Shown here in pieces: positions 18,139-30,792 of a DNA stretch of 33,574 nucleotides; positions within the stretch are counted from its first letter, which is position 1; every line of letters starts with the position of its first letter. Under the pieces are notes generated by a model, which saw only the letters and a program-made list of their open reading frames with translations, ran no database searches and was not told where the DNA came from. This DNA is from a virus: UHGV virus genome UHGV-0219389. One strand, written 5' to 3'. The position numbers and the translations under genes are program-made.

Positions 18139-18709
18139 GCCATTACAACTCCCGCCACCGCTTGAGGGTGATACCAGTCTCAGGACGCTGGGAAGACTGG
18201 CAGGGCGGCTGGATAACATCGACCTGAGCGTACTGATGGTCTTTCTCGTCGATATCGTCGACAGTTCTGCGCTGCCATGGCTGTGCGAGCAGTTCTCACT
18301 GTCTGGCGATGGCTGGGAGCTGGCGGAATCGGACGATGTTCGCCGCATGCTTATAAAAGCAGCCATCGAACTGCACCGGTATAAAGGGACGCCGTGGTCA
18401 ATCCGGGAAGTTATCCGCCGTTTTGGCTTTGGTGAAGTGGATCTGATTGAAGGCACAGGTCGTCTCAGTTACGACGGCAATCGCAGCTATAACGGACTGT
18501 TTGTTCATGGAGATGCAGCCGCCTGGGCGGTTTATTGCGTTATTCTGAAACAGCCCATTACTAACGATCAGGCCGCGATGCTGCGTCAGACGCTCGCTGC
18601 ATTTGCACCGGCCCGCTGCCATCTGGCCAGCCTGGAGTATCAGTCTGTGGCCATTCGCTATAACAATACCGCCATCCATGATGGCAGTTATAACCACGGG
18701 AGCAGTTGA
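18131..18709 (+). CDS. tail protein (P2 gpI / Mu gp48-like)
   Basis: ATG at 18131 in frame with track ORF 18119..18709. Confidence 0.6.
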   Translation: MAEPLQLPPPLEGDTSLRTLGRLAGRLDNIDLSVLMVFLVDIVDSSALPWLCEQFSLSGDGWELAESDDVRRMLIKAAIELHRYKGTPWSIREVIRRFGFGEVDLIEGTGRLSYDGNRSYNGLFVHGDAAAWAVYCVILKQPITNDQAAMLRQTLAAFAPARCHLASLEYQSVAIRYNNTAIHDGSYNHGSS

Positions 18710-18711
18710 TT

Positions 18712-19875
18712 ATGGGAAACCTGAATGAAACAGAAAAGTGGGAAGAAAATATCTATCAACTGGAGACATCAGATCCGGTTCTGGGTGGTGCTGACGGGAT
18801 ATCAAATCGAGCCCCCCGGCAACTGGCAAACAGGACGAAATGGCTGAAGAAAAAAACGGAGGAAGCCGCACAGTCACTGGCTGAACACGTACGTTCCCGT
18901 AACCACCCGGACGCGACACTGACAGCTAAGGGGTTCACCCAACTGAGCAGTGCCACCAACAGCACCTCTGAAACGCTGGCCGCCACACCAAAAGCCGTCA
19001 AGGCTGCATACGACCTTGCAGCCGGCAAGGCGCCCGTCAGCCACACTCACCCGTGGAGTCAGATAACGGGAGTGCCTGCTGCCTCGCTGACGGCAAAAGG
19101 CACCGTACAACTGAGCAGCGCCATCAACAGCACGTCTGAAACGCTGGCCGCCACACCGAAAGCGGTCAAGGCTGCATACGATCTGGCAAACGGAAAACAA
19201 CCGGCAGATGCCACGCTCACTGCTCTGGCAGGACTTGCCACTGCAGCAGATCGGTTGCCTTATTTTACCGGAGCAGACCGCGCAGCGCTGGCAACCCTTA
19301 CAGCTATTGGTCGCGCTATTATCGCTAAGGGCAGTATAAAAGATGTCCTCAATTACCTTGGTTTGGGGGAAGGCTCTGCATTGCCTGTTGGTGTACCGGT
19401 TCCGTGGCCCACCGCCACACCGCCAGCAGGCTGGTTAAAGTGCGACGGGCGCGCCTTTACAAAAGAACAATATCCTGTTCTGGCCAGAGTCTACCCGACC
19501 CTCCGTCTTCCCGATTTACGCGGTGAGTTTATCCGTGGATGGGACGACGGGCGCAAAGTTGATACAGGACGTAAGTTGCTGTCCGCACAAGGGGCAACGC
19601 TGTTAAGAACAGCAATGCTGGATTATTATAACCAGGACACTACGGGAACCTCGGGGATAGTCGGCATGGGATTCAACAATGAAGATTCCATTACAGACCT
19701 TCGTGAGGGCAGCTTTAAAATGCCGGACGGGACAACATTCAGCGATCCTGTCATGGCAATGTCAGACAATGGTATGCAGGCTACTATTCTGACCTCTATC
19801 AGAAGCGGGTATGCGAAGGGTATCACTGTCAGACCCCGTAGCATTGCACTTAATTACATTGTGAGGGCAGTTTAA
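18712..19875 (+). CDS. tail fiber protein (constant N-part plus invertible C-terminal variant Sv)
   Basis: ATG at 18712; internal repeats TAKG(F/T)xQLSSA(T/I)NSTSETLAATPKAVKAAYDLA; C-terminal part from about 19360 lies in the invertible segment. Confidence 0.8.
   Translation: MGNLNETEKWEENIYQLETSDPVLGGADGISNRAPRQLANRTKWLKKKTEEAAQSLAEHVRSRNHPDATLTAKGFTQLSSATNSTSETLAATPKAVKAAYDLAAGKAPVSHTHPWSQITGVPAASLTAKGTVQLSSAINSTSETLAATPKAVKAAYDLANGKQPADATLTALAGLATAADRLPYFTGADRAALATLTAIGRAIIAKGSIKDVLNYLGLGEGSALPVGVPVPWPTATPPAGWLKCDGRAFTKEQYPVLARVYPTLRLPDLRGEFIRGWDDGRKVDTGRKLLSAQGATLLRTAMLDYYNQDTTGTSGIVGMGFNNEDSITDLREGSFKMPDGTTFSDPVMAMSDNGMQATILTSIRSGYAKGITVRPRSIALNYIVRAV
18921..19200. repeat. intragenic tail-fiber repeat, 2 copies about 168 bp apart
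   Basis: Duplicated 30-aa motif in the fiber shaft. Confidence 0.7.
19346..19371. other. gix-like crossover site, left (tcctcaattacc-TT-GGTTTGGGGGAA)
   Basis: 26-bp site with inner half-site matching the Hin/Gin/Cin half-site pattern GGTTTnnnnnAA; central TT. Confidence 0.55.
19358..19437. repeat. 80-bp perfect inverted repeat, left copy
   Basis: Reverse complement identical to 20883..20962; encodes the shared peptide GLGEGSALPVGVPVPWPTATPPAGWL. Confidence 0.9.
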
Positions 19876-20489
19876 TGAGTAACACTGCAGTTCTGGATGA
19901 AAACGGTATCGCCACTGTAGCGGGCGATATCACTGTATATCACTATGACGAGGAAACCCGGGAATACACCTCATCCTCTGTGGAGTATCTCGCCCTTGGG
20001 GTGGGTACTCCGGCACATTCGTGCGCCGATGCACCGCCGGAGGCAATTTCGGGTTACGTGGTTTGCCGGACTGCCACGCTGAACGGGTGGGAGCATGTGC
20101 CTGATCACCGCGGCGAGACGGTATACAGCACGGAGAACGGTAACCCCGTTCTGATTACCCAACCGGGTGATTACCCGGCGGACACCACCACAAAACAGCC
20201 TGCCACACCATGGGATACCTGGAACGGTGAAGCGTGGGTAACTGATACTGAACGGCATAGAGCCGCAGAGCTGGAGACTGCCAGACTGCAACGCCAGAAA
20301 CGGGTGGATCAGGCGATGAAGTCCATCGACCTCATCAACCTCAAACTGCGGGCAGGTCGCAGTCTGAAACCAGAAGAAACGGCAAAACTGAACGCCGTGC
20401 TGGATTATATCGACGAGCTGAACGCACTGGATATCAGCAAGGCACCTGAAATCAGCTGGCCGGAAGCGCCACTGGCGCTTGCCGGCTGA
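19875..20489 (+). CDS. tail fiber assembly protein (Tfa/U-like)
   Basis: 204-aa ORF, start overlapping the fiber stop. Confidence 0.75.
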   Translation: MSNTAVLDENGIATVAGDITVYHYDEETREYTSSSVEYLALGVGTPAHSCADAPPEAISGYVVCRTATLNGWEHVPDHRGETVYSTENGNPVLITQPGDYPADTTTKQPATPWDTWNGEAWVTDTERHRAAELETARLQRQKRVDQAMKSIDLINLKLRAGRSLKPEETAKLNAVLDYIDELNALDISKAPEISWPEAPLALAG

Positions 20490-20495
20490 ACGGTA

Positions 20496-20962
20496 TCACG
20501 CCGCCCTCACGATATAGTTAAATGCGATATTGCGGGGGCGAGCTGATACATAAGCCCACCAGTCATATCTTTGTGCACCTTTAGAGGATGCATCAAATAT
20601 CCACTTTTTGCCATTTATGACCCCCAGTTGATTAGAGGTTAAAGCGTCACCAAATCCGTATTGTGTAGAGCCGAGCGAACTGATATCTCCGGTATCATTA
20701 TCATCAAAACCGGATACGATAGTCCCTTCCTGAAATGAAAGTAGCGCACGCCCGGTATCAACCTTGCGACCACCGTCCCATCCACGGATAAACTCACCGC
20801 GCAAATCGGGAAGACGGAGGGTCGGGTAGACTCTGGCCAGAACAGGATATTGTTCTTTGGTGAACGTAGCTCCGTTGCACTGTAACCAGCCTGCTGGCGG
20901 TGTGGCGGTGGGCCACGGAACCGGTACACCAACAGGCAATGCAGAGCCTTCCCCCAAACCAA
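20496..20962 (-). CDS. alternative tail fiber C-terminal segment (Sv'), promoterless
   Basis: Minus-strand frame whose N-terminal 26 aa equal residues of the + strand fiber at the inverted repeat, then diverges; both variants end ...NYIVRA. Confidence 0.7.
20883..20962. repeat. 80-bp perfect inverted repeat, right copy
   Basis: Reverse complement identical to 19358..19437. Confidence 0.9.
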
Positions 20963-20974
20963 CGTTTATCTCTC
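20949..20974. other. gix-like crossover site, right (TTCCCCCAAACC-AA-cgtttatctctc)
   Basis: Inner half-site TTCCCCCAAACC matches the invertase half-site pattern; central AA is the reverse complement of the left-site TT. Confidence 0.55.
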
Positions 20975-21029
20975 AAATCCTCCCCACATTATCTCAGTAC
21001 TTTAACCACTCAAAAGGGAGTATTTTTAA

Positions 21030-21601
21030 TGCTGATTGGCTACATACGTGTGTCAACAAATGACCAAAACACAGATTTGCAACGCAAAGCATTAATGTGC
21101 GCAGGATGTGAACAGATTTTTGAGGACAAAATGAGCGGAACCAAGTCGGAACGTCCAGGCCTGAAACGCGCTTTAAAGTGCCTTAAAAGAGGGGATACAT
21201 TGGTGGTCTGGAAGCTGGATCGGTTGGGTAGAAGAATGAAACACCTCATTGCTCTCACAGAAGAGCTACGCGCAAAAGGTGTCAATTTTCGCAGTCTGAC
21301 GGATTCAATCGATACCAGCACTCCGATGGGAAGGTTCTTTTTTCATATGATGGGTGCACTGGCAGAAATGGAGCGTGAACTGATAGTTGAGCGCACGCTG
21401 GCAGGACTGGCTGCTGCGCGAGCACAAGGGAGAGTTGGAGGACGTCGCCCGAAACTGACGAAGGAGCAGCATGAGCAGATCGCAAGATTGCTCCAGAAAG
21501 GGTATGACAGAAAGCGGCTGGCAATTATCTATGATATTGGACTGTCAACGATCTACCGCTACCACCCTGTTGGGACTGTCATAACGCAACCTGAAATGTA
21601 A
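21030..21601 (+). CDS. gin: DNA invertase (Gin/Pin/Cin/Hin family serine recombinase)
   Basis: N-terminal MLIGYIRVSTNDQNTDLQ catalytic-serine motif and C-terminal HTH; start at ATG 21030 inside track ORF 20900..21601. Confidence 0.85.
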
Positions 21602-21679: not shown

Positions 21680-21741
21680 TACAGCCCTTTAGCCTCCAGT
21701 TCTTCCGCTTTGCTGTCTTTAATCATGCTGTACCTCACTGC

Positions 21742-22167
21742 TTAAAACGGTATTCCGTCCCCGTACGGATCATCGTGCTGGCCTGTCTGTTGTTTTGCCC
21801 TGTTCAGTGCGTCAGTAGCCTGGCCCTGCTGGCCTTTTTTGCCGCCCGGTCGCGCCGTTCGCGCACTGATTACGCTGTCTGCGATGACCTGCCAGCCCTG
21901 CCGCGTTTCGCCGTTCTGGCCTGTCCACTGGCTTACCTGCATGTTACCCGCCACGCTCACCAGTTCGCCTTTCTGGTGTTTTGCCAGTGCGTCGGCCTGT
22001 CTGCCAAACGCCAGGACGGATAACCACATCGTCGCCGTTCCGTCATCTGCCTGGCTGCATGGCAGGGGAACCGCCATACTCGCCATCGCCATTTGTGTTC
22101 CCTTGCTGGTGGTCTTTAACTGCGGGTCAGCCACCAGCCGCCCGTAAGCCGCTATCTGTGCTGTCAT
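21742..22167 (-). CDS. SSB-like single-stranded DNA-binding protein
   Basis: 141 aa with Gly/Gln-rich linker and C-terminal acidic tail ending DGIPF, as in SSB (DDDIPF). Confidence 0.55.
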   Translation of the reverse strand: MTAQIAAYGRLVADPQLKTTSKGTQMAMASMAVPLPCSQADDGTATMWLSVLAFGRQADALAKHQKGELVSVAGNMQVSQWTGQNGETRQGWQVIADSVISARTARPGGKKGQQGQATDALNRAKQQTGQHDDPYGDGIPF

Positions 22168-22227
22168 GCTGTCTGTTCTCCGGTTTTAACGTTGATTGTT
22201 ACGCTTGTTTACACCCTTATGGTGAAA

Positions 22228-22376
22228 TTCTGCGGGTTATAATCGCACTTTTGCGGGTTATAACTGCCGTTTTGCGGGTTATTTTGGGTATTTTACGGGT
22301 TACGATTTTCCTGCCATTCCTTTAATAATCATATGGATACTGATTTATCCACAGAAATAACCCGCATAACCCGCAA
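22228..22376. repeat. iteron array (candidate replication origin)
   Basis: Four direct copies of (T)TTTGCGGGTTAT spaced exactly 21 bp (22231, 22252, 22273, 22294), an AT-rich spacer, then two inverted copies ATAACCCGCA (22357, 22366). Confidence 0.7.
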
Positions 22377-22403
22377 AATTTTCACCCTACACGCGAGAAA
22401 AAA

Positions 22404-24530
22404 TTAATCTTCTTCGCTTTCTGGCTGGAACATCAGCACGTAAAAAACATGCTGCTTCCCCCCAATTTTGCCGAGCGCCTTTTTCTTGTAACGGCGATCG
22501 TTACCCGCTTCCAGCATTCCGGCAGCACTCAACGCGCGGGCAAAGTGAGACGGATTAAATCCCTGTGCTATCTCACCCTCAAATACATGCGGGAACGTGT
22601 AAAAACGGAACTCGTCATCTTCGTTTCTGATACTCCCCTTTCTGTATCCGGCAAGCTCTTTAATCGGTAAATCACGCTCGTCAGAGTTGGGCCAGGGAAG
22701 GTATCTGCTGAATCCGAACGACGCTAAAAAAGCCTCTGCCTGTTCAACCATCTGTTTAAACTCCCTGTTACCCGTGCCGAACTCCTTCACCCAGGCATTA
22801 AAATTATGCTGTATGGCATCGCGGCATTCCTGCTCATCCCAGCCAGTAACATGACCTGAAAGCACAAGCGCGGCCTCCAGTATGGCAAATCGCTCCCCCA
22901 CACGGTGAACCTGTTCGCCGTAGCTCTCCGGTATCAGGTTGCGCCACCGCTCACGGCATGTCCTTACCGTGTCCTTTGCCTCCTGCTGGTGTTCTGCCAG
23001 CCATTTAACCCACTCACGACCCGCCGCCCCGTGATTTGCTGTCCAGGCATCCTTTAACGCGTCTGCGTGCGCCTTTCCGGTGCTGTATTCGTGAAATTGC
23101 GTGGCTTTTTCCATCGGAACGTTAAGCAGGCGGACAAGCTGCCCCGCTTTGACTTTTATCCCCTCCGTTTTGAGGAATGTCTCAACGTCCATTTCTCCGG
23201 TGCTGATTGCCACCGTTCGCCAGTGTTTTATCTCCCTGTTGCCGCCGTCCTTTGCCCCCTGTAATTTCCCGGAACCGTTAAACAGCGTATAGGCTGACGT
23301 GGACACCTCCCGCGCGTTTCCGGCCTGGCCTATTTCATCCAGGGGTAAAAGCCCGTCATTGTGTGCCTCTGCTTCGTTGGCGATACCTAACGCTGTGCCG
23401 TACCAGGTCAGCCGCTGCGCGTCCGGCTCTCCCCATAAACTTGATGCGATGTTCTGCGTTGTGGTCTTACCTGCCGATGACTGTTCGAAAAGATGTACCC
23501 CGAAGCCGTCAGCGCCCACCAGCCCGATTAATGGTGCGGATAACGATACCGCCACCCCCAGCATCATGGACGGATTACCACCAGCCAGTCGCGCCACGGT
23601 GTCGCGCCAGCCCTCCGCCGTTCCTGCCACGGAATAGCCATTAACAGCAGCAGTTTTTCCGGTAAACAGGACTGGCTTTTCGCAATCACCAATGACCGAA
23701 CCGTCCGGCATGATGTACGCGCCAAAATGCCAGCCCGTTGTTGTGCTTAACTGCCATTCCTCATGGCTTCCGCTTAACTGCATCCAGTCAGCCAGGATTG
23801 CCCTGTATTTACCGTTGGTTGTTACGTTCAGTCCGTGGTCTTTCAGCAGCCGCCAGCCGTCACGGTCGCCAATGCCACCGCACGGAACCGCCATTGTGAT
23901 GACTTCATGATTTGCTGGCTTTTTCCAGCGCATCACGCGGTAATGTTCTTTGCCGATTGTCCCCGTTCCCAGCAGTTCAAGCGGGGAACATAACCACGTC
24001 TCAGGCCGGATAATTTCGCCTGACTGCTTGTCCACTTTTGGCGTAACCCAGAAAACACCATCGGCGCGGCTTTCAACGCGGGGCTTTAATTCATCATCAC
24101 CCGGGCTTTCTGTGATTTTTTTCTTTAAGGGCAACACCAGACTTTCCCCGCGCTCGTATTCGTCTTTGAGGCGAGGCAACTGGTCGGATAAATCCGCCGG
24201 GCTGGTGTCAGTTATCCCCGCGTATTCGTATACGGTCTTCACGCCAGCCACAGCCAGCAACGTGACGATCTGTGTAAGGCTACGTTCAGTGATGTGCCCT
24301 GCGCGGTAAATACGCACACACTGACGGCTATCATCAATAATTTGATAACCGGTAATATCTTTCAGGTGTTCATCTGACAGAACGACAGGCGGCACATTGT
24401 CGGCGGCAATATGCTTACCTGCCCATTCCTGCCACTCTTTCGCATGGCTCCACGCATCACTACCCGCAAAGATGATAACCTCCGTCATTTTGTCGGCTGG
24501 CTGGTGCTTTAAGTTTGGTGCGCGCTTCAT
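22404..24530 (-). CDS. primase-helicase-like replication protein (P-loop NTPase)
   Basis: 708 aa with P-loop-like FEQSSAGKTT; placed beside the iterons as replication initiators are in P4-like and PICI-like elements. Confidence 0.55.
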   Translation of the reverse strand: MKRAPNLKHQPADKMTEVIIFAGSDAWSHAKEWQEWAGKHIAADNVPPVVLSDEHLKDITGYQIIDDSRQCVRIYRAGHITERSLTQIVTLLAVAGVKTVYEYAGITDTSPADLSDQLPRLKDEYERGESLVLPLKKKITESPGDDELKPRVESRADGVFWVTPKVDKQSGEIIRPETWLCSPLELLGTGTIGKEHYRVMRWKKPANHEVITMAVPCGGIGDRDGWRLLKDHGLNVTTNGKYRAILADWMQLSGSHEEWQLSTTTGWHFGAYIMPDGSVIGDCEKPVLFTGKTAAVNGYSVAGTAEGWRDTVARLAGGNPSMMLGVAVSLSAPLIGLVGADGFGVHLFEQSSAGKTTTQNIASSLWGEPDAQRLTWYGTALGIANEAEAHNDGLLPLDEIGQAGNAREVSTSAYTLFNGSGKLQGAKDGGNREIKHWRTVAISTGEMDVETFLKTEGIKVKAGQLVRLLNVPMEKATQFHEYSTGKAHADALKDAWTANHGAAGREWVKWLAEHQQEAKDTVRTCRERWRNLIPESYGEQVHRVGERFAILEAALVLSGHVTGWDEQECRDAIQHNFNAWVKEFGTGNREFKQMVEQAEAFLASFGFSRYLPWPNSDERDLPIKELAGYRKGSIRNEDDEFRFYTFPHVFEGEIAQGFNPSHFARALSAAGMLEAGNDRRYKKKALGKIGGKQHVFYVLMFQPESEED

Positions 24531-24841
24531 TTTGCCTTTCTCCGTTCACGAATAATTTCACGTACTGCCTTAATGCGTTCCATACCTGTAACGCGCATGA
24601 TTCTGTCGATGTCGCTTAAGTTCGCTGGTGGTGCTTTGCTTACCAGGGTGAATTCACTCTCAAAACGCATATGTGACGACACGCAGGGATGCGCATAACC
24701 TTCGCGGATATAGGTCACGCGAAAATCATCGACGGTTTTAATCGTTATCGTGCTGCCGTATTTATCCTGGAAAATATCGCCGGGGCGGATTTCAGGCCGA
24801 GCGGAGCCGCTGGCAGTAAAGCCAGAATTTTTCTTTTTCAT
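24527..24841 (-). CDS. hypothetical protein, coupled to the primase gene
   Basis: 104-aa ORF overlapping the primase start by 4 bp. Confidence 0.45.
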   Translation of the reverse strand: MKKKNSGFTASGSARPEIRPGDIFQDKYGSTITIKTVDDFRVTYIREGYAHPCVSSHMRFESEFTLVSKAPPANLSDIDRIMRVTGMERIKAVREIIRERRKAK

Positions 24842-24847
24842 GTTTTT

Positions 24848-25066
24848 TTACTCCAGAGGCCGCTTTTTAGCGAAGAGTTCAATATCAGATGTCAGAGAAA
24901 CCTGTGTATTTGCCAGGTCTAACAACAAAGAAATAAGAATTTCCTCTCTGCTATCTGATTTATCGGTGCTAAGGCTGTTCATCCACATATTGACGACTTC
25001 CCTGATTTTTTTCGCAGAGTGCATGGCTTCAAATGCCAGGTCTTCAATATCATGTTTATTTCGCAT
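24848..25066 (-). CDS. hypothetical small protein
   Basis: Internal ATG of track ORF 24848..25132, chosen to limit overlap with the upstream gene. Confidence 0.35.
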   Translation of the reverse strand: MRNKHDIEDLAFEAMHSAKKIREVVNMWMNSLSTDKSDSREEILISLLLDLANTQVSLTSDIELFAKKRPLE

Positions 25067-25268
25067 AATCGCCCCCGCGTAACTGGTCTGCACTAACACC
25101 CGATTTAGTGAGCATTTCAGAAAATCCCGCAAGAGTGCTGATAAATTCGTTTTCCATTAAACGGCACTGGCATTTAACCCGGCCTTTTTCCAGATACACC
25201 AGTACGCACCCCGTATAATCTGACGGCACATTCAGCACTACAGATAAGTGCGCTTCATTATTATTCAT
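25056..25268 (-). CDS. hypothetical small protein
   Basis: 70-aa ORF in the same operon. Confidence 0.35.
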   Translation of the reverse strand: MNNNEAHLSVVLNVPSDYTGCVLVYLEKGRVKCQCRLMENEFISTLAGFSEMLTKSGVSADQLRGGDYAK

Positions 25269-25497
25269 GGCTCACCACCTCCATATCAGCCATGATAATT
25301 TTGCTGGCCTCATTCAGTGCCATATCAGCACTAAGTTGCATTACAGCCAGTGAATGAGGAACGAAAGCCCCGGCATATTCTGTTTCGCTGGTGGCGTGCT
25401 TATGCGCCTTGTCTGCGATAACAGAAATATCAATCAGCGCGTGCATCAGCGTTTTGATGGCTTCGGCGGCTGCGTCCGGACGGGTGTTATTGCACAT
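25261..25497 (-). CDS. hypothetical small protein
   Basis: 78-aa ORF overlapping its neighbours at both ends. Confidence 0.35.
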   Translation of the reverse strand: MCNNTRPDAAAEAIKTLMHALIDISVIADKAHKHATSETEYAGAFVPHSLAVMQLSADMALNEASKIIMADMEVVSHE

Positions 25498-25693
25498 GGA
25501 GCACCCCCTGACGAATACGGGCGGCGAATACCATCACGCAGCCAGCCGGGGATTGCTGGCGTGCTTCCTGTTCGCTGGTGGCCACGATGTGAATCACGCG
25601 CGGTTGTGCGGTGCTCAGGGCGATAAAACGCCAGATGTATTTATTCAGGTTGTGCGAGTCCCGCCCTTGCGGGTGTGTGGTATGATTTCTCAT
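25487..25693 (-). CDS. hypothetical small protein, first gene of the leftward operon
   Basis: 68-aa ORF from ATG 25693 with GAGG RBS; this is the C-terminal part of the 301-aa track ORF, whose upstream part crosses operator palindromes. Confidence 0.4.
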   Translation of the reverse strand: MRNHTTHPQGRDSHNLNKYIWRFIALSTAQPRVIHIVATSEQEARQQSPAGCVMVFAARIRQGVLHVQ

Positions 25694-25770
25694 AGCTACC
25701 TCGATACTCTTGCTATCGTTGGTGGTTAGACGCCCTGCATGTGTTGCGAGCACTGCGGGGCGTTGCTTAA

Positions 25771-25826
25771 TTTGAGTGACAAAACTCAAACTGTGCGCAC
25801 AGATTAAAATCATGTGTGCGCACATG
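25771..25826. promoter_or_regulatory. divergent promoter/operator region with palindromes
   Basis: TTTGAGT-N6-ACTCAAA at 25771-25790; perfect palindrome TGTGCGCACA at 25792-25801 and again at 25815-25824; half-site TGTGCGC near 25862. Confidence 0.6.
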
Positions 25827-25898
25827 TCAATACTTAACATCTCATTTTTTTTGCTGTATTGTGTGCGCCCATAAAGTCCATTTAAGTGAGGTGCATCA

Positions 25899-26096
25899 AT
25901 GTCTAGCGGTAACACAAACAACAAATCAGCAAAGAAAAATATTCGATTCCCACATGAGCTTATAGATGGGATTGATGCCAGCGTTGAACAAGAAAAATTA
26001 ACTAATCCTAGTGCTAATTTTTCCGCATGGGTCTTAGATGCCTGTGGACGCAAATTAAAATATGAACAGCGCCGGAAGGCCAAAGAATCAGAATAA
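25899..26096 (+). CDS. ribbon-helix-helix (Arc/Mnt-like) putative repressor
   Basis: 65 aa; segment KNIRFPHELIDGIDASVEQEKLTNPSANFSAWVLDAC has the beta-strand/helix/helix pattern of Arc (RWPREVLDLVRKVAEENGRSVNSEIYQRV, from memory). Confidence 0.5.
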   Translation: MSSGNTNNKSAKKNIRFPHELIDGIDASVEQEKLTNPSANFSAWVLDACGRKLKYEQRRKAKESE

Positions 26097-26138
26097 TCAC
26101 TATCAGCGCCGTGGTGTGAGTAACTACGGCGCATTGCT

Positions 26139-26327
26139 ATGCAGGACAACACAATGACCGATAAAGAATTGACCAAAACATTATCACCGACACGGAAAAG
26201 ACGGCGCAGAAAGATAGAGCATGAATCAGAAAGATTCGCACCTTGTTCGTTTGCTCTTGAGAAATTCCTTAAAGAGCGCAGGAAAAAGCTCTCGTTGCAA
26301 ACCTTGGAACGAACCAAATCTGACTGA
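26139..26327 (+). CDS. hypothetical basic protein
   Basis: 62-aa Lys/Arg-rich ORF downstream of the RHH gene; weak RBS. Confidence 0.25.
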   Translation: MQDNTMTDKELTKTLSPTRKRRRRKIEHESERFAPCSFALEKFLKERRKKLSLQTLERTKSD

Positions 26328-26460
26328 TCACATTGCCCACCAGCCGCAAATGTGGCATTGTTGGTGATGCTTTTGTTTTCCCTTGTTCCCACTGGCTACC
26401 CTTTTGCGGTCGCCTTTGTTTTGCCTGTTATCCGGCAATAGTGGCGCTTCGTCACCTGTC

Positions 26461-26549
26461 TGATATAATTCCACTGCTTATATTCATTTTTTGCGCAGTA
26501 GGTTAATTGTTCGCAAGGGCGCTCCGGCAACGGGGCGCTTTTTGTTTTT
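26461..26549 (+). ncRNA. candidate small RNA (extended -10 promoter to intrinsic terminator, about 70 nt)
   Basis: TGaTATAAT at 26461-26469; stem-loop TTGCG..CGCAA; terminator GCGCTCCG-GCAA-CGGGGCGC + TTTTTGTTTTT at 26519-26549; no ORF with RBS between. Confidence 0.35.
26519..26549 (+). terminator. intrinsic terminator (8-bp stem, GCAA tetraloop, U-tract)
   Basis: GCGCTCCG / CGGGGCGC stem with one G-U pair, followed by TTTTTGTTTTT. Confidence 0.6.
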
Positions 26550-26707
26550 ACCCACCAGCACAATAAAAATCTTCATTTTCCATTTTTGTAAAATTTCATG
26601 CTTTCCGGACGACTGGTCATATGTCATTTTTTAGCAGAAGATTTTGCCTTGCTGGTGGGTAGCTTCCCGGTCAACACGATGTACCGTATAATCAACACCG
26701 CGTGTGG

Positions 26708-27292
26708 TTACTGAATACGCTCACCAAAGTAAAACTCAGGCTGGTATTCACGTATCAGCCTTTTTTCTTCTTCCTCCAGCTCACGCTTTTTGCGCTTACA
26801 TGCCTGTAGCTCCCTCCCCTTCTCGCTGGCACTTATCTGATATTGCTCTTTGCGGCGGGAAAAATCCTGTAATGCGCCCCACGGGATACCATAAGCCCCC
26901 GTTTTTCTGATACCCGGTATCACATTTCTGAATACCCAGTTACTGAAACGATGGGCGAACGTGCCAGGAGTAGCAGCTTTGCGACTTCTGGCAATCAGCT
27001 TGTAAAAGCCAGATTCAGAAACGACGCTATGATTTGGATTTCCGCGAATACCGTAAGTTAAAGTTACGGTATTACTTTCATCATCATCCAGAGCTTGCAA
27101 CGCCATGCGTGAATTGGATAATTCAAGCGCCGCACAAACATCCTTTGCAACAAACCACGGATCGCCGTTCAGATACACCACACGAACATCCACGCCATCA
27201 AAACGTAGAACGACCTGATCACGAATATCGCAGAATTTTTTCACTGGACGTGCATTCCCCTTGCCCATCATGGCAATATTTTTATTCATCAC
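26708..27292 (-). CDS. Bro-N domain antirepressor-like protein
   Basis: N-terminal motif DGDPWFVAKDVCAALEL characteristic of Bro-N; 194 aa; GAGG RBS. Confidence 0.65.
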   Translation of the reverse strand: MMNKNIAMMGKGNARPVKKFCDIRDQVVLRFDGVDVRVVYLNGDPWFVAKDVCAALELSNSRMALQALDDDESNTVTLTYGIRGNPNHSVVSESGFYKLIARSRKAATPGTFAHRFSNWVFRNVIPGIRKTGAYGIPWGALQDFSRRKEQYQISASEKGRELQACKRKKRELEEEEKRLIREYQPEFYFGERIQ

Positions 27293-27308
27293 TTTCTACC
27301 TCACATAC

Positions 27309-27336
27309 AAAAAACCCCGCATTGCGTGGTGCGGGG
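27309..27336 (-). terminator. intrinsic terminator after the AlpA-like gene
   Basis: Minus-strand stem CCCCGCA / TGCGGGG followed by TTTTTT. Confidence 0.55.
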
Positions 27337-27346
27337 TTGTCGGTAA

Positions 27347-27625
27347 TTACTTATTGGCGTTTTTGTATGGGCTGTTTACTTCCTTTACTCCTGGCGGATG
27401 CATAACCCACCAGAGCACATCAGAGAGCAACCAGGAAACAGACACTTTCCCTAAATGAGCACGAGCAGGAAATGCTCCCTCCTGTTCAAGTACCCAACGT
27501 CTGCTTCTTGAAAGCCCGGTACGATTGGCACACTCATGTTCGCGTATACGGCGATCATACGGTTCGCCATGCTCTTTCAGAATCTGAATGCGTTCTTCGG
27601 GTGTAGGATAAATAAATTTTTGCAT
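27347..27625 (-). CDS. AlpA-family HTH regulator
   Basis: Start at internal ATG 27625 (MQKF...) with AGGTGA RBS; TGLSRS..W HTH pattern. Confidence 0.55.
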   Translation of the reverse strand: MQKFIYPTPEERIQILKEHGEPYDRRIREHECANRTGLSRSRRWVLEQEGAFPARAHLGKVSVSWLLSDVLWWVMHPPGVKEVNSPYKNANK

Positions 27626-27637
27626 AAAAATATCACC

Positions 27638-27665
27638 TATAAAAAAACCCGCCAAAAGACGGGTT
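27638..27665 (-). terminator. intrinsic terminator-like hairpin between the two AlpA-like genes
   Basis: Minus-strand stem AACCCG / CGGGTT followed by a 7-nt U-run. Confidence 0.45.
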
Positions 27666-27688
27666 GATTATATCTCATTTAATTTAGC

Positions 27689-27910
27689 TCAGGGTTTCCA
27701 TTCACCCTTTACCCATTCCAGCACCTCAGATAAGCGCCAGACTTTTGTTTGTGGGCCAATACATATTTTTCGTGGAAATTTTCCTTCCTTTTCAAGTAAC
27801 GATCTGTGTCTCCTGCCAAGAGCGGTTAACCATGCACATTCATCTTCCTTAATCATCCTGTCGATTGTTTTATCATTTTCAAGTTCTTCACGCGTAACTA
27901 TTTGAATCAT
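27689..27910 (-). CDS. excisionase/AlpA-like HTH protein
   Basis: Small ORF overlapping the integrase 3' end; AlpA-like pattern (ECAWLTALGRRHRSLLEKEGKFP). Confidence 0.5.
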   Translation of the reverse strand: MIQIVTREELENDKTIDRMIKEDECAWLTALGRRHRSLLEKEGKFPRKICIGPQTKVWRLSEVLEWVKGEWKP

Positions 27911-29111
27911 TACCGTCACCACTAATTAGCTTATTCAGATAGTCATACCACCAATTCATAGCTTCTTTTTTTCTGTCCATATACTGGCTTCTGTTATAAA
28001 CCCCGGCAACACCGCCTAATGTGTGCCCAAGCAACTGTTCAACCACATTATGTTCAAAACCATGATCACTTAGCTTTGTGGCAAACACTCTTCGCATATC
28101 ATGCGCCGTCCATTTCTCCGAGTGTTTCATCCTTTTCCATGTCTTACCGATAGTTACGCTTGCCGTACACTGACGCATATCAAACCCAATCACATTTTCT
28201 TTGTTACCTGTTATTTTTTTTAACGTAACTAACCAGTTAAACATGCCATCAGGAATCGGTCTGATTATTTCCCTGCCATTTTTGCTATGATCAGCGGGAA
28301 CGCGCCATAATTTCTTATCAAAATCCCACTCTCCCCAGGAGGACAGTAATACTTCTGACAGTCGACAACCAAAAACTACCAGGAAACGTAAAATAATTCG
28401 GTTTTCATATGATAATTCGTGATTGTCATAATCAGTATTAATACTTCGCCATAAATCTCTGATTTCATCATCTGTTAAAACCCTGCTTCTTCGCGCAGAC
28501 TTTTTTCCCACATCACAGACCTCAAGATCATCAATTTCATGACTAATCGCGTATTTTCTTACCCGACAAAATTTAAGCGCCTGTTTTGATATACGCAACA
28601 AAGCTCCGGCCTGTACAGGTGCTACTTTTTTTATTTTGTCAAAACACTTGATCCACATAGATATAGAGCAATCACTAAGTGGTACATGACCAATCACCGG
28701 ATAAATATGTTTACCAAAGCACTGCCTGATATGTTCTGCTCCCCTACGCTTATCCATTGCATAATTATCAAGCCAGTATTCAAGTGCCTCACGAACGGTA
28801 ACAGGTTGCAAGGTGGCTTCCCGTTCAATTTTTATCTGAATCCGTGGATCTCTGCCCTCCGCAAGCCAGGTTCGACACTGATCGCGCATCTCTCTCGCTG
28901 ATTTGAGACTCAGATCAGGATATTTCCCAAGTGTCAGCCAGATGGGCGCGGTTCCCCTTCCCGCCAGTCTGTAAAAGAAAACAAAACTAACACATCCGTA
29001 TTTACTGACCCGTACCGAAAGCCCGTTACCATCAGCGATGGTTTCCTGCCTCTCACTCCTGCGCCCAAGCAGGGAACGAAGTTTTTTATCGCTCAGTTTG
29101 TTTAGCGCCAT
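27888..29111 (-). CDS. int: tyrosine integrase (P4-type)
   Basis: N-terminal MALNKLSDKK...GNGLSVRVSKYG resembles P4-family integrase; C-terminal HDMRR...LLGH...Y catalytic region; start taken at ATG 29111. Confidence 0.85.
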   Translation of the reverse strand: MALNKLSDKKLRSLLGRRSERQETIADGNGLSVRVSKYGCVSFVFFYRLAGRGTAPIWLTLGKYPDLSLKSAREMRDQCRTWLAEGRDPRIQIKIEREATLQPVTVREALEYWLDNYAMDKRRGAEHIRQCFGKHIYPVIGHVPLSDCSISMWIKCFDKIKKVAPVQAGALLRISKQALKFCRVRKYAISHEIDDLEVCDVGKKSARRSRVLTDDEIRDLWRSINTDYDNHELSYENRIILRFLVVFGCRLSEVLLSSWGEWDFDKKLWRVPADHSKNGREIIRPIPDGMFNWLVTLKKITGNKENVIGFDMRQCTASVTIGKTWKRMKHSEKWTAHDMRRVFATKLSDHGFEHNVVEQLLGHTLGGVAGVYNRSQYMDRKKEAMNWWYDYLNKLISGDGNDSNSYA

Positions 29112-29116
29112 GTGAT

Positions 29117-30310
29117 TTATAACCCGTTTTTGCAATACACAGTGCAATACACAAATGATGAAAACAGCCAGAACCTTCCAGAAAAAACAAAAACGACGAA
29201 CAAGAAAAAATCTTTTTCTTTCATTTGGTTACTAAAAAAATCAGGACAGGTCGCACTGTTGTTACGGCGTGATGTTACTTTCTTGGTAAAAAAATTCACC
29301 CGCGCAGAGACCTGCTCCTTCGCTTTTTTCGCCAGACGACGCAGATCATCCCAGCGTTTACAGATGCCCAGGCCAGGATTCGCTTTCTGCCAGACCGTTT
29401 CATCAAACGGATCATCTCCCTCATCAAGCGTGTAAATGATCGCAAAGTAAGAGTCGTCTTTTACAGCGCCCTCCACGTCGCTGTTATAGCCTCGCAATAC
29501 CTTGATGGCGTAATCACGCTGCTCGTAACAAATCCCTTCCTTGTTAAAGCCAGCCGTGGTGATACCAAATAACAGGGACTGCAGACGGGCACCGGTTGCC
29601 GTTTCCAGAACGTCCCACACGTCGCGGGTTTTATGTGCATGCAGCTCATCAATAATGGCGCAGTGGATGTTCAGACCGTCCAGGTTGTTTGCATCCGAGG
29701 AAAGCGGTTCAAATTTTGATGCGCTCTGCTCCTGGTAAATCGCCAGCTTGTTGAAATCAAACAACCGCCCGAGTGTCGACCGGGCTTTTCTGACCATATT
29801 TTTGGCGTCTTCAAACACGATTCTGGCCTGGTCAAGCGTGGTTGCGGCTGAATACACCTCAGCTCCGCCTTCACTATCTGCCCCCGTCATATACAGACCG
29901 ATACCCGATGACAGGGTTGATTTTGCGTTTTTACGGGCAACTTCGTTGTATGCTGTCCGGAACCGGCGCACCATCACCGGGCGTCCACTGCCATCGCTGC
30001 GCATGACAACTTCCCCGGTTTCTTCATTCACCAGCGGAATGACAAAACCAAAAATATTAATGAGGATAAACACATGCCAGTCCATCAACTCAATGGGCTG
30101 ACCTGCCAGCGCCCCTTTCACATGGGGTACAAATTTGTAGAAATTAAGGATGTGCTGTGCACGAGGTTCACTGAAATAAATCCCCCGCTCTTCGCCGTAC
30201 TTCAGATCATCAAGAAAACGCTGGCAGGCCAGACGGACAAATTCGCCAGCAACAATTTCTCCTGCAACAACACGTTCGGCGTAGCGGATCCCGTCAGCCA
30301 CTTTTGCCAT
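29117..30310 (-). pseudogene. terminase large subunit, 3'-truncated (ATPase domain only)
   Basis: terL-like sequence through about residue 340 (..WQKANPGLG..), then low-complexity tail from AT-rich DNA abutting the integrase start. Confidence 0.65.
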
Positions 30311-30792
30311 CAGTCTCTCGCTTTTAAAAGCTCTGCCAGCGGATCAACATCATCCGGTCCGGCGGTATTTACTTTCGCCCGGCTTGCCGGTGACATACCA
30401 AACTCTGCAAGCATCGCCCGAATCCGCTTCCAGGCATCAGCCTTCATCGCAGCAGCCGGGTGTGCCTTGATCAGCACATCGCCATTCTGCGTTTTCGTGC
30501 GGTAGGTATAACCCTCAACATCGAGTATTTCGCAGTGATGCCGGTATTCGGTGTAGGCTTCCACCAGTAACTCGAGCGCACGTGCATCGAGCTGAGAAAT
30601 GATCCCTTCCGCATTCAGCTCTTCCGCCATTCGCCTGAACCAGTACTTCCCCTGCGCCCCTAAATGTTGCGGAATTTTAGGGAGACCTTTTTCATCCTTT
30701 TTAGCGGTTTTTTTGAGGTCTTTAACTGGCCGCTTTGAGGGGTTGCCTCGTATCAAATGCAGGCGTGGCGGGATTTTCGGGGGTCCAGACAT
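30310..30792 (-). CDS. terminase small subunit (P27-family-like)
   Basis: 160-aa ORF with stop overlapping the terL start; position between HNH and terL. Confidence 0.65.
   Translation of the reverse strand: MSGPPKIPPRLHLIRGNPSKRPVKDLKKTAKKDEKGLPKIPQHLGAQGKYWFRRMAEELNAEGIISQLDARALELLVEAYTEYRHHCEILDVEGYTYRTKTQNGDVLIKAHPAAAMKADAWKRIRAMLAEFGMSPASRAKVNTAGPDDVDPLAELLKARD

What the first reader, a model, noticed from the sequence alone, without database searches (positions are those of the whole stretch)
26461..26549. Candidate small RNA between the regulatory region and the antirepressor gene
A perfect extended -10 (TGaTATAAT) is followed about 55 nt later by a strong intrinsic terminator (8-bp GC stem, GCAA tetraloop, 11-nt U-tract), with a second stem-loop TTGCG..CGCAA between them and no ORF with an RBS. 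P4-type elements use an RNA as their immunity factor, so a roughly 70-nt structured RNA here could be regulatory.
Basis: partly seen in the sequence, partly recalled or inferred. Interest (0 to 1): 0.5.

Follow-up and report, generated by a model that had tools for sequence, protein, structure and literature searches.

The report
Unannotated small RNA in phage satellite
A roughly 73-nt non-coding RNA gene with its own promoter and terminator sits where two opposing operons meet in a phage-satellite island of E. coli; relatives in about 8% of complete E. coli genomes keep both signals, so it is probably real, but it is undescribed, untested and has no known target.

Summary
The sequence features are there. 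TGATATAAT lies at 26461-26469. A strong + strand intrinsic terminator lies at 26515-26549 (-20.4 kcal/mol, z -4.6). No credible ORF lies between them.

The window alone would not prove a gene. The comparison with relatives makes the case:
- 112 related loci fall into five sequence classes. All share the terminator and the 11-20 nt before it, but have unrelated 5' parts.
- Every class keeps a -10 hexamer at the same distance from the terminator.
- Classes without a TG extension have a TTCAC[AT] -35 box at 17-bp spacing.
- A separate terminator (T1) for the upstream operon lies just before the promoter.
- Conserved G.U pairs make the hairpin strong on the + strand only.

The RNA is not a P4 CI/C4-type immunity RNA, not IsrK and not Esr41, and it matches no Rfam family.

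It always lies between a rightward repressor-like operon and the leftward int-alpA-(antirepressor) operon of PICI/P4-like satellites. It was found only in Escherichia.

My favoured mechanism is inferred, not shown: antisense pairing with leftward read-through transcripts, with T1 and T2 insulating the two operons. A trans-acting role is nearly as likely. No expression data could be examined.

The parts
25899..26327 (+). Rightward operon upstream of the RNA: a YlcI/YnfO-family (DUF3950, ribbon-helix-helix-like) protein at 25899..26096 and a basic 62-aa ORF at 26139..26327.
   Evidence: ORFs. Pfam DUF3950 E 1.6e-6. NCBIfam YlcI_YnfO_N E 3.5e-16. PHROG 949 and PHROG 21027. A rightward small ORF of some type lies upstream of the RNA in essentially all loci where the flank is available.
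26328..26393 (.). Conserved non-coding block ('unit 1') directly after the ORF62 stop codon. It also occurs upstream of the PLE-like promoter in true P4-type relatives. On the - strand it reads ..NNATFAAGGQC.., probably a gene remnant.
   Evidence: blastn hits over query 1-95 in many contexts. Alignment A1. The - strand ORF is broken in the window.
26394..26423 (+). T1, the intrinsic terminator of the rightward operon: GGCTACC-CTTTTGC-GGTCGCC followed by TTTGTTTTG. The window copy has one internal mismatch.
   Evidence: Present in 72 of 74 class I loci in two stem versions, GGCCACC/GGTGGCC and GGCGACC/GGTCGCC, which differ by a compensatory change. The terminator scan finds it in L009. It folds weakly in the window.
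26441..26455 (.). Imperfect palindrome GTGGCG-CTT-CGTCAC at the -35 position of the RNA promoter. It is a possible operator, or a hairpin in read-through RNA.
   Evidence: Relatives have GTGGCGCTTCGCCAC. A sub-group has TGGTC-ATTTC-GACCA at the same place, so the palindrome is kept with a different sequence. It is not repeated elsewhere in the satellite.
26461..26469 (+). Extended -10 promoter element TGATATAAT.
   Evidence: It is invariant in 27 distinct class I sequences while both flanks vary. A -10 hexamer matching at least 5 of 6 lies at the equivalent distance in all 31 distinct RNA variants.
26476..26549 (+). Predicted small RNA of about 72-74 nt. The start at G26476 is inferred from the -10 position. 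The 3' end lies in the U-tract.
   Evidence: Fold -24 kcal/mol, z -3.25. No ORF. No Rfam family. Family alignment A2 and model R1.
26500..26518 (+). Conserved, predicted unpaired segment AGGTTAATTGTTCGCAAGG just 5' of the terminator. GTTCRCAARGG is shared by all 27 distinct variants aligned; note that this motif was the retrieval pattern, so its invariance is imposed by the search (the 8-9 nt before it are moderately conserved on their own). It is a candidate seed or chaperone-binding site.
   Evidence: Alignment A2 invariant columns. The RNAalifold consensus leaves it unpaired.
26515..26549 (+). T2, the intrinsic terminator of the small RNA: stem-loop 26515-26542, GCAA loop, tail TTTTTGTTTTT.
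   Evidence: There are 11 consensus pairs: one has a compensatory G-C to A-U change, and three are conserved G.U pairs. The - strand version folds at only -12.4 kcal/mol (z +1.0) and lacks a U-tract.
26708..27292 (-). Convergent BRO-N (antirepressor-like) gene, the last gene of the leftward int-alpA-alpA-BRO operon. No - strand terminator lies between its stop codon and the RNA gene.
   Evidence: Pfam Bro-N E 1.7e-17. The terminator scan shows no - strand site in 26328-26707.

Best explanation
Positions 26461-26549 are an autonomous small-RNA gene. It has a sigma-70 promoter with an extended -10, a start near 26476, about 40 nt of largely unpaired RNA, and its own intrinsic terminator T2. It belongs to an undescribed family carried by PICI/P4-like phage satellites of Escherichia.

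The gene always sits where the rightward repressor-like operon, which ends at its own terminator T1, meets the leftward int-alpA-(antirepressor) operon.

The mechanism I favour is cis-antisense action, and it is inferred, not shown.
1. Leftward transcripts have no terminator of their own, so they must run through the RNA gene.
2. The constitutively made RNA is fully complementary to those 3' extensions. Pairing, and the head-on transcription itself, would trim or destabilise them.
3. This would keep leftward transcription from reading antisense into the repressor operon.
4. T1 and T2 would keep rightward transcription out of the antirepressor, alpA and int genes.

My estimates: about 0.75 that a discrete RNA is made, and about 0.4 that this cis mechanism is its main role.
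For: - **Family and classes.** The conserved block ends exactly at the terminator. There are 112 loci and 31 distinct RNA variants in five classes. They share the 3' module but have unrelated 5' parts.
- **Promoter kept in every variant.** Each has a -10 matching at least 5 of 6, placed 39-48 nt before GTTCRCAA. Classes I and V have a TGn extension and a poor -35. Classes II-IV lack TG but have TTCAC[TA] at 17-bp spacing, with three unrelated spacer sequences. The independent scan finds TTCACT-17-TATAAT in L009.
- **Selection on the -10.** TGATATAAT is invariant among 27 distinct class I sequences while both flanks vary.
- **Upstream operon has its own terminator.** T1 shows a compensatory stem change.
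- **Strand asymmetry.** T2 has three conserved G.U pairs. It folds at -20.4 kcal/mol on the + strand and -12.4 kcal/mol (z +1.0) on the - strand.
- **Constant position.** The arrangement RHH> (orf2>) [RNA>] (BRO or Ant<) AlpA< Int< holds whatever the terminal leftward gene is.
- **Leftward read-through is forced.** No - strand terminator lies between the leftward stop codon and the RNA gene. In relatives that stop codon is only about 13-30 nt from T2.
- **No trans target.** None was found in the satellite or the neighbouring prophage DNA.
Against: - No transcript data of any kind could be examined.
- All homologues come from Escherichia and many are close relatives, so part of the conservation is shared ancestry.
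- In this window the -35 is poor and T1 carries a mismatch. T2 may therefore also be the working terminator of the upstream operon here.
- The RNA does not overlap any coding sequence: the BRO-N stop codon is 159 nt beyond its 3' end. Any antisense effect would fall on a 3' UTR only.
- A purely antisense RNA needs no sequence conservation. Yet the unpaired segment before the terminator is conserved in all classes (part of this, GTTCRCAARGG, is the retrieval pattern), which fits a trans-acting seed or a chaperone site better.
- More distant satellites with the same gene order lack the cassette, so it is not essential to this architecture.
Confidence: 0.4

Rival explanations
1. It is a real small-RNA gene that acts in trans. 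The conserved unpaired segment (AGGUUAAUUGUUCRCAARGG) together with the terminator and U-tail would form a seed and chaperone (Hfq or ProQ) handle. It would pair with host or helper-phage mRNAs, as other island- and satellite-encoded sRNAs do. The variable 5' parts could be alternative targeting regions.
For: - The unpaired 11-20 nt before the terminator are kept in all five classes while the 5' parts are unrelated; GTTCRCAARGG itself was the retrieval pattern, so only the neighbouring bases count as independent evidence.
- The RNA has an intrinsic terminator with a U-rich tail and an A/U-rich upstream stretch.
- There are precedents. A satellite-encoded sRNA regulates both satellite and phage genes in V. 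cholerae PLE (abstract of 10.1101/2022.04.08.487710, seen). Esr41 from an EHEC island regulates core genes (PMC5286369).
Against: - No complementary stretch above chance was found in the whole 33.6-kb window: nine 9-mers were found and about nine are expected (my estimate from sequence lengths).
- Duplex scores against the translation-initiation regions of all satellite genes are no better than for shuffled RNA, with mean z near 0.
- There are no phage hits above chance.
- The host genome could not be searched.
- The U-tail is interrupted (U5GU5; U3CUCU5 in other classes).
Confidence: 0.3
2. There is no functional discrete RNA. The hairpin is a back-up (tandem) terminator for the rightward operon and a conserved module junction where satellite segments recombine. 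The -10-like sequence would be incidental or would give only abortive, unstable transcripts.
For: - One TGNTATAAT per window is expected by chance about half the time.
- The -35 is poor here and T1 is weakened in this window.
- The 3' module sits exactly at mosaic boundaries between different right-hand flanks: BRO-N, AntA/B, alpA and a truncated BRO.
- More distant satellites manage with a single hairpin between the same genes.
Against: - Promoter elements are kept at a fixed distance in five classes whose sequences are otherwise unrelated. The pattern is complementary: a TG extension or a good -35, never neither.
- The -10 is invariant while its flanks vary.
- A mere junction or terminator would not need a promoter 47-55 nt upstream, nor a conserved unpaired leader.
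Confidence: 0.2
3. It is a diverged homologue of the P4 CI / P1-P7 C4 immunity RNA, and so the satellite's immunity factor in the P4 sense.
For: The element is P4/PICI-like and has an Icd-like gene. A true P4-type relative has C4 and isrK-like RNAs nearby.
Against: - No C4 hit appears in the window even at E up to 10, while P4 and L004 score 75-76 bits.
- The RNA is on the opposite strand, about 800 nt from the Icd-like gene.
- It has its own promoter and terminator instead of being cut from the operon leader.
- The consensus structure is a single terminator hairpin.
- It has no complement in the leftward leader.
- In this lineage the C4 position is occupied by a protein (RHH) module.
Confidence: 0.02
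4. The region encodes a small protein: a - strand 47-aa or 30-aa ORF through the hairpin as a type I toxin, or a + strand micro-ORF.
For: The - strand ORF 26484..26627 reads through the RNA gene and contains a short hydrophobic run, MKIFIVLVG.
Against: - It has no Shine-Dalgarno sequence.
- The hydrophobic run is too short to span a membrane.
- The ORF's upstream half is absent in loci where alpA or Ant abuts T2.
- Single-base indels occur within the RNA region (L065).
- The + strand has no ATG in class I.
Confidence: 0.02

Closest known systems
Phage lambda OOP RNA (77-nt antisense RNA; from my own knowledge of the literature, not tested here)
   Same: It is a short RNA with its own constitutive promoter and intrinsic terminator. 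It is transcribed convergently to a regulatory gene of a mobile element, and pairs with the 3' part of that gene's transcript.
   Different: OOP overlaps the cII coding sequence. This RNA overlaps only what would be a 3' UTR or read-through of the BRO-N, Ant or alpA transcript. There is no sequence similarity. RNase III dependence is untested.
Phage P22 Sar RNA (about 69-nt antisense RNA of the immI region; from my own knowledge)
   Same: It is a small antisense RNA next to an antirepressor gene in an immunity region, with its own promoter.
   Different: Sar covers the ant ribosome-binding site. This RNA lies at the 3' end of the antirepressor gene, and is also present in loci that have no antirepressor.
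P4 CI RNA / P1-P7 C4 RNA (Rfam RF01695)
   Same: It is an RNA encoded in the regulatory region of a P4-like satellite that carries an Icd-like gene.
   Different: There is no covariance-model match (versus 75-76 bits in P4 and L004). It is on the opposite strand, is a primary transcript with its own terminator, has a single hairpin, and has no target repeats in the leader.
SviR sRNA of the Vibrio cholerae PLE satellite (bioRxiv 10.1101/2022.04.08.487710; abstract seen)
   Same: It is a satellite-encoded small RNA. It is the only other described case found of an sRNA playing a role in satellite-phage interplay.
   Different: The host, the satellite family and the sequence are unrelated. SviR has experimentally mapped targets; this RNA has none.
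Island- and prophage-encoded sRNAs of pathogenic E. coli (Esr41 RF02676, AgvB, AsxR, Pas sRNAs, STnc100)
   Same: They are about 70-nt RNAs, ended by an intrinsic terminator, on horizontally acquired DNA of E. coli.
   Different: None matches. Esr41 lies in SpLE1 next to iha (PMC5286369). The Pas sRNAs lie in lambdoid late or structural regions (10.64898/2026.05.13.724894). This RNA lies in the switch region of PICI-like satellites.

Membership tests
C4 antisense RNA / P4 CI (Rfam RF01695) | Match to the family covariance model at or above the gathering score | tested here: not met
   No hit in the window at the gathering score or at E up to 10 over 25400-27400. The same search gives 74.9 bits in P4 and 76 bits in L004.
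C4 antisense RNA / P4 CI (Rfam RF01695) | Lies in the leader of the leftward (replication) operon, on the same strand, upstream of the icd-like gene | tested here: not met
   The RNA is on the + strand, and the Icd-like gene (25693..25490) is on the - strand about 800 nt away. In L004 and P4 the C4 RNA is on the operon strand directly upstream.
C4 antisense RNA / P4 CI (Rfam RF01695) | Loop sequences complementary to repeated target sites in the same leader (seqA/seqC in P4, a2/b2 in P1; from my own knowledge) | tested here: not met
   No complementary stretch above chance was found anywhere in the window or in the initiation regions of satellite genes.
isrK-like leader RNA (RF01394) and Esr41 (RF02676) | Match to the family covariance model | tested here: not met
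   No hit in the window or in six further carrier loci. isrK is found in P4 and L004 by the same tool.
Free-standing bacterial sRNA gene (generic) | Own sigma-70 promoter, conserved in position among homologues | tested here: met
   A -10 matching at least 5 of 6 lies at a fixed distance in 31 of 31 variants. Each has either a TG extension or a TTCAC[TA] -35 at 17 bp. The -10 is invariant among variable flanks. The scan tool hit in L009 matches 10 of 12.
Free-standing bacterial sRNA gene (generic) | Own intrinsic terminator, strand-specific | tested here: met
   -20.4 kcal/mol, z -4.6. Eleven consensus pairs with one compensatory change and three G.U pairs. The - strand version folds at -12.4 kcal/mol with no U-tract.
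Free-standing bacterial sRNA gene (generic) | Non-coding | tested here: met
   No ATG in the class I RNA. ORFs on both strands are not conserved across flank types, and a 1-nt indel occurs in L065.
Free-standing bacterial sRNA gene (generic) | A discrete transcript is detected | not testable with these tools
   No expression data are available. The sequence was not found in the text of any held paper.
Cis-antisense RNA of the OOP/Sar type | Overlaps a transcript made from the opposite strand | tested here: inconclusive
   There is no overlap with any CDS: BRO-N ends at 26708. Overlap with a leftward 3' extension is inferred from the lack of any - strand terminator in 26328-26707 and the weak - strand hairpin.
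Cis-antisense RNA of the OOP/Sar type | RNase III-dependent processing of the target, or a regulatory effect on it | not testable with these tools
   This needs experiments.
Hfq-type trans-acting sRNA | Conserved single-stranded seed plus a terminator with a U-tail | tested here: inconclusive
   A conserved unpaired segment is present at 26500-26518. The U-tail is interrupted by G or C.
Hfq-type trans-acting sRNA | An identifiable mRNA target with complementarity | tested here: not met
   None in the window, in satellite genes or in the phage collection. The host chromosome was not searched.

The most novel reading that the evidence does not exclude
The RNA could be a modular regulator, built from a constant 3' handle and an exchangeable 5' targeting part (five classes so far). 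In that reading it would be the specificity determinant of a second, non-C4 kind of RNA-based control in Escherichia phage satellites. It would decide whether helper-induced alpA/antirepressor transcription can flip the satellite's switch, or it would target helper-phage transcripts. It would be analogous to, but evolved independently of, the P4 CI and P1 C4 immunity RNAs.
Probability: 0.15. Interest if true: 0.7.

Novelty: new member of a known kind. Interest (0 to 1): 0.45.

Why it matters
- **Regulation of these satellites is poorly known.** Gram-negative PICI/P4-like satellites are common in E. coli. Beyond AlpA as the master activator (PMC11773190), little is known about how they stay quiet and how they are switched on.
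- **The position is suggestive.** This is a conserved, unannotated RNA gene at the point where the repressor-side and activator-side operons collide. It occurs in 444 of 5,426 complete E. coli genomes, with up to six copies per genome, including pathogens such as E. coli 042 and O104:H4. That makes it a concrete, cheap-to-test candidate for a missing control element.
- **Annotation is wrong here.** RefSeq currently lays spurious 'hypothetical' or over-long 'Icd-like' ORFs across the region.
- **If it is only a terminator cassette,** the result is ordinary.

Tried and rejected
- **Rfam.** Four searches covered the window and 12 related loci. Nothing matched at the locus.
- **Esr41.** I suspected this roughly 70-nt EHEC sRNA. 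It is rejected: it lies in SpLE1 next to iha, is in Rfam, and does not match.
- **Pas sRNAs.** Rejected because they sit in lambdoid late or structural regions.
- **Text search.** The hairpin sequence was not found in any held paper. Literature searches for satellite sRNAs found only V. cholerae PLE.
- **Trans targets.** The first duplexfold scan on 60-nt windows was uninformative, because energies are inflated by long loopy duplexes. The k-mer complement search came out at the chance level. Scores against initiation regions were no better than for shuffled RNA. The one apparent signal, 'ORF105' at z -2, came from loopy duplexes involving the promoter region and was not convincing. A 7-nt match of the RNA's 5' end to the BRO-N start codon region was noted by eye and judged to be chance.
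- **'ORF105'.** This is a - strand ORF through unit 1 that is intact in L009. It matches no Pfam, NCBIfam or PHROG family. Only 30 mostly partial database entries resemble it. I treat it as a remnant or shadow ORF.
- **More distant homologues.** The exact-pattern scan of species genomes found only E. ruysiae. Covariance model R1 found nothing in 54 more distant satellites.
- **Coding strand under the RHH genes.** The codon-position test was uninformative because third codon positions coincide on the two strands.
- **Type I toxin-antitoxin idea.** Rejected because the - strand ORF is not conserved.

Full report
**1. What is in the sequence**

TGATATAAT lies at 26461-26469 on the + strand. It is the only TGNTATAAT in the window. 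One such match is close to the chance expectation: 0.55 are expected, and 43 of 100 shuffles have at least one. The -35 position reads GTGGCG, so the generic promoter scan does not report the site.

The terminator is the best terminator-like site in 24.5-28.5 kb. Its stem-loop spans 26515-26542 with 12 pairs (7 G-C) and a GCAA loop, and the tail TTTTTGTTTTT runs to 26549. It folds at -20.4 kcal/mol, z -4.6, and none of 200 shuffles folds as well. The 74-nt RNA 26476-26549 folds at -24 kcal/mol, z -3.25.

There is no ATG. The only + frame is a TTG-started ORF that reads through the terminator. On the window alone, only the terminator stands out.

**2. Context**

The region belongs to a PICI/P4-like phage satellite lying on the - strand. 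Its genes are:
- integrase, 29147..27888
- two AlpA-family genes, 27922..27689 and 27655..27347
- a BRO-N antirepressor-like gene, 27292..26708
- an Icd-like gene, 25693..25490, after the interval studied here
- DUF4222, a DUF927 primase and SSB

Between the BRO-N and Icd-like genes, two small genes point rightward. One is a YlcI/YnfO (DUF3950) protein that looks like a ribbon-helix-helix repressor, at 25899..26096. The other is a basic 62-aa ORF at 26139..26327. They diverge from the Icd-like operon at a region holding TGTGCGCACA palindromes.

The satellite is inserted in a prophage terminase large-subunit gene, as it is in E. coli 042 and other strains. In a true P4-type relative (L004) and in P4 itself, the position next to the Icd-like gene holds the C4/CI RNA and an isrK-like leader. 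The window has neither.

**3. Comparative evidence for a gene**

blastn against complete E. coli genomes shows a conserved block, window 26328-26550, that ends exactly at the terminator. The block is mosaic.

Alignment of six loci revealed a first terminator, T1 (26394-26423 in the window). It lies between the ORF62 stop codon and the -10. T1 is recognisable in 72 of 74 loci of the window's class. Its two stem versions, GGCCACC/GGTGGCC and GGCGACC/GGTCGCC, differ by a compensatory change. The window copy (GGCTACC) has one mismatch. The upstream operon therefore has its own terminator.

Together with the E. coli loci, this gave 112 genuine loci and 31 distinct RNA variants in five sequence classes.
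- All classes share the terminator and the 11-20 nt before it. Because the loci were retrieved with the pattern GTTCRCAARGGCGCTCC, the sharing of that motif and of the 5' arm of the terminator is partly imposed by the search; the promoter, the 5' parts and the rest of the RNA were not selected for.
- Their 5' 25-35 nt are unrelated.
- Every variant has a -10 hexamer matching at least 5 of 6 (TATAAT, TAAAAT, TACAAT or TAGAAT), placed 39-48 nt before GTTCRCAA.
- Classes I and V have a TGn extension and a poor -35. Classes II-IV lack TG but have TTCACT or TTCACA exactly 17 bp upstream, with three unrelated spacers.
- The independent scan tool reports TTCACT-17-TATAAT (10 of 12), T1 and T2 in L009, all on the + strand.
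- Within class I (27 distinct sequences), TGATATAAT has no substitution, while the columns on both sides vary.

Either a TG extension or a good -35 is present, never neither, and always at a constant distance from a shared terminator. This pattern is the strongest argument that these are working promoters of a short transcription unit.

**4. Structure**

RNAalifold on 27 distinct variants predicts only the terminator hairpin. It has 11 pairs, one with a compensatory G-C to A-U change in two sequences, and three conserved G.U pairs. Because of those G.U pairs the hairpin is much weaker on the - strand (-12.4 kcal/mol, z +1.0), and there it is not followed by U's. So the + strand is the selected one.

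It is paired in 75% of cells. Individual pairs are broken in 5-12 of the 27 variants. One pair does show C-G to U-A changes in five sequences. It is at best a weak, class-specific feature. The segment 26500-26518 is conserved and predicted to be unpaired.

**5. Distribution**

The 89-nt cassette matches 444 of 5,426 complete E. coli genomes (547 places, up to six per genome). It is never annotated as an RNA. Among 185,579 species-representative genomes, the 30-nt degenerate 3' pattern occurs only in Escherichia ruysiae.

A covariance model of the family finds the RNA in close relatives only. It finds nothing in 54 satellites whose DUF4222 protein is 51-56% identical, and nothing in P4 beyond an unrelated hairpin. 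In those more distant satellites the RHH gene abuts the BRO-N gene with a single hairpin between them.

In all 112 loci the order is DUF4222< Icd< | RHH-type gene> (second ORF>) [RNA>] (BRO-N or AntA/B<) AlpA< Int<.

**6. Is it known?**

No Rfam 15 family matches the window or six further carrier loci. Esr41 is in Rfam and lies elsewhere, in SpLE1 (PMC5286369). The Pas sRNAs lie in lambdoid late or structural regions (10.64898/2026.05.13.724894).

The hairpin sequence occurs in no held paper. A study of the related PICI EcCIMP1 describes AlpA as master regulator and mentions no RNA (PMC11773190). The only described sRNA with a role in satellite-phage interplay that I found, apart from P4's CI RNA, is in the V. 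cholerae PLE (10.1101/2022.04.08.487710). Papers outside the held library could not be checked.

**7. How it might work**

I found no trans target.
- Complementary 9-mers in the whole window are at the chance level: nine were found and about nine are expected (my estimate from sequence lengths).
- Duplex scores against the initiation regions of all satellite genes equal those of shuffled RNA.
- Phage hits are at chance.

On the other hand, no - strand terminator lies between the BRO-N stop codon (26708) and the RNA gene. In relatives, the alpA or Ant stop codon is only about 13-30 nt from T2. The - strand hairpin is weak. Any leftward transcript must therefore run through the RNA gene and be fully complementary to the RNA.

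I therefore favour an OOP-like cis role. The RNA, and the head-on transcription itself, would trim or destabilise leftward 3' extensions and stop them from reading antisense into the repressor operon. T1 and T2 would shield the antirepressor, alpA and int genes from rightward transcription. All of this is inference.

The conserved unpaired segment is not explained by a purely antisense role. It keeps a trans-acting (Hfq or ProQ type) role nearly as likely, and the two roles are not exclusive. A plain tandem terminator at a recombination junction, with an incidental promoter, remains possible at about 0.2.

**8. Verdict**

This is most likely a new, narrowly distributed family of satellite-encoded small RNA: a new member of a known kind. 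Expression and function remain untested.

Noticed in passing
window 29117-30792 (-), with satellite about 21700-29150: The satellite is inserted inside a prophage terminase large-subunit gene. The TerL ORF keeps its ATPase domain but only 68 of 286 positions of the nuclease domain, and it abuts the satellite integrase. The same insertion site is seen in E. coli 042, SCU-125 and an O157 strain.
   Followed up: partly
window 26694-26770 (+): A second possible OOP-like unit. A perfect TATAAT at 26694-26699 is followed by a 10-pair hairpin at 26738-26761 and T6. It would give an RNA of about 60 nt, antisense to the last ~20 codons of BRO-N. A G/A polymorphism in the stem keeps G.U or A-U pairing on the + strand only. 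The relatives are too similar to judge conservation.
   Followed up: partly
window 25487-26392 (-); L003 1696-2973 (-): A - strand frame starting ..NNATFAAGGQ.. stays open for 300-425 codons. It runs antisense through the RHH genes and the divergent promoter into the Icd-like domain. It is open for at least 184 codons in most of the 62 loci that carry this motif, across several unrelated rightward modules. RefSeq sometimes annotates it as a 305-aa 'Icd-like protein'. Third codon positions of the two strands coincide, so the substitution test was uninformative. Whether it is a shadow ORF or a real protein is unresolved.
   Followed up: partly
window 26333-26344, 26548-26560, 26650-26661: A direct repeat, TTGCCCACCAGC and TTACCCACCAGC, brackets unit 1 plus the RNA cassette. 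A perfect 12-bp inverted repeat (TACCCACCAGCA / TGCTGGTGGGTA, 89 nt apart) follows T2. In L009-type loci the cassette lies on the other side of the homologous segment. This suggests the cassette has been rearranged by recombination at these repeats.
   Followed up: partly
window 25790-25872: Three copies of a TGTGCGC[AC]CA palindrome lie in the divergent promoter region between the Icd-like and YlcI-like genes. They are likely operators of the RHH-type protein. A TTAACA-17-TATTGT rightward promoter overlaps them.
   Followed up: no
window 26441-26455: A palindrome, GTGGCG-CTT-CGTCAC, sits at the -35 position of the RNA promoter. A sub-group of relatives has a different palindrome (TGGTC-ATTTC-GACCA) at the same place. 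It could be an operator that makes the RNA promoter regulated.
   Followed up: no
window 18706-21601: A Gin-like serine invertase (20900..21601, +) lies next to opposed tail-fibre and collar ORFs (18706..19875 +, 20496..20957 -). This is an invertible tail-fibre segment of a second, Mu/P2-like prophage that abuts the left end of the satellite.
   Followed up: no
L004 2245-2433 (-); L006 (P4) 8420-8692 (-): The Rfam isrK family matches the first about 77 nt of the P4 PLE transcript and of a P4-type E. coli element, directly upstream of the C4/CI RNA. The window's lineage has replaced this RNA-based module with a protein (RHH) module.
   Followed up: no
L001 17379-17568 (-): An STnc100 sRNA (132 bits) lies in the prophage that hosts the satellite in E. 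coli 042, near iraM and tRNA genes. It is outside the region covered by the window.
   Followed up: no
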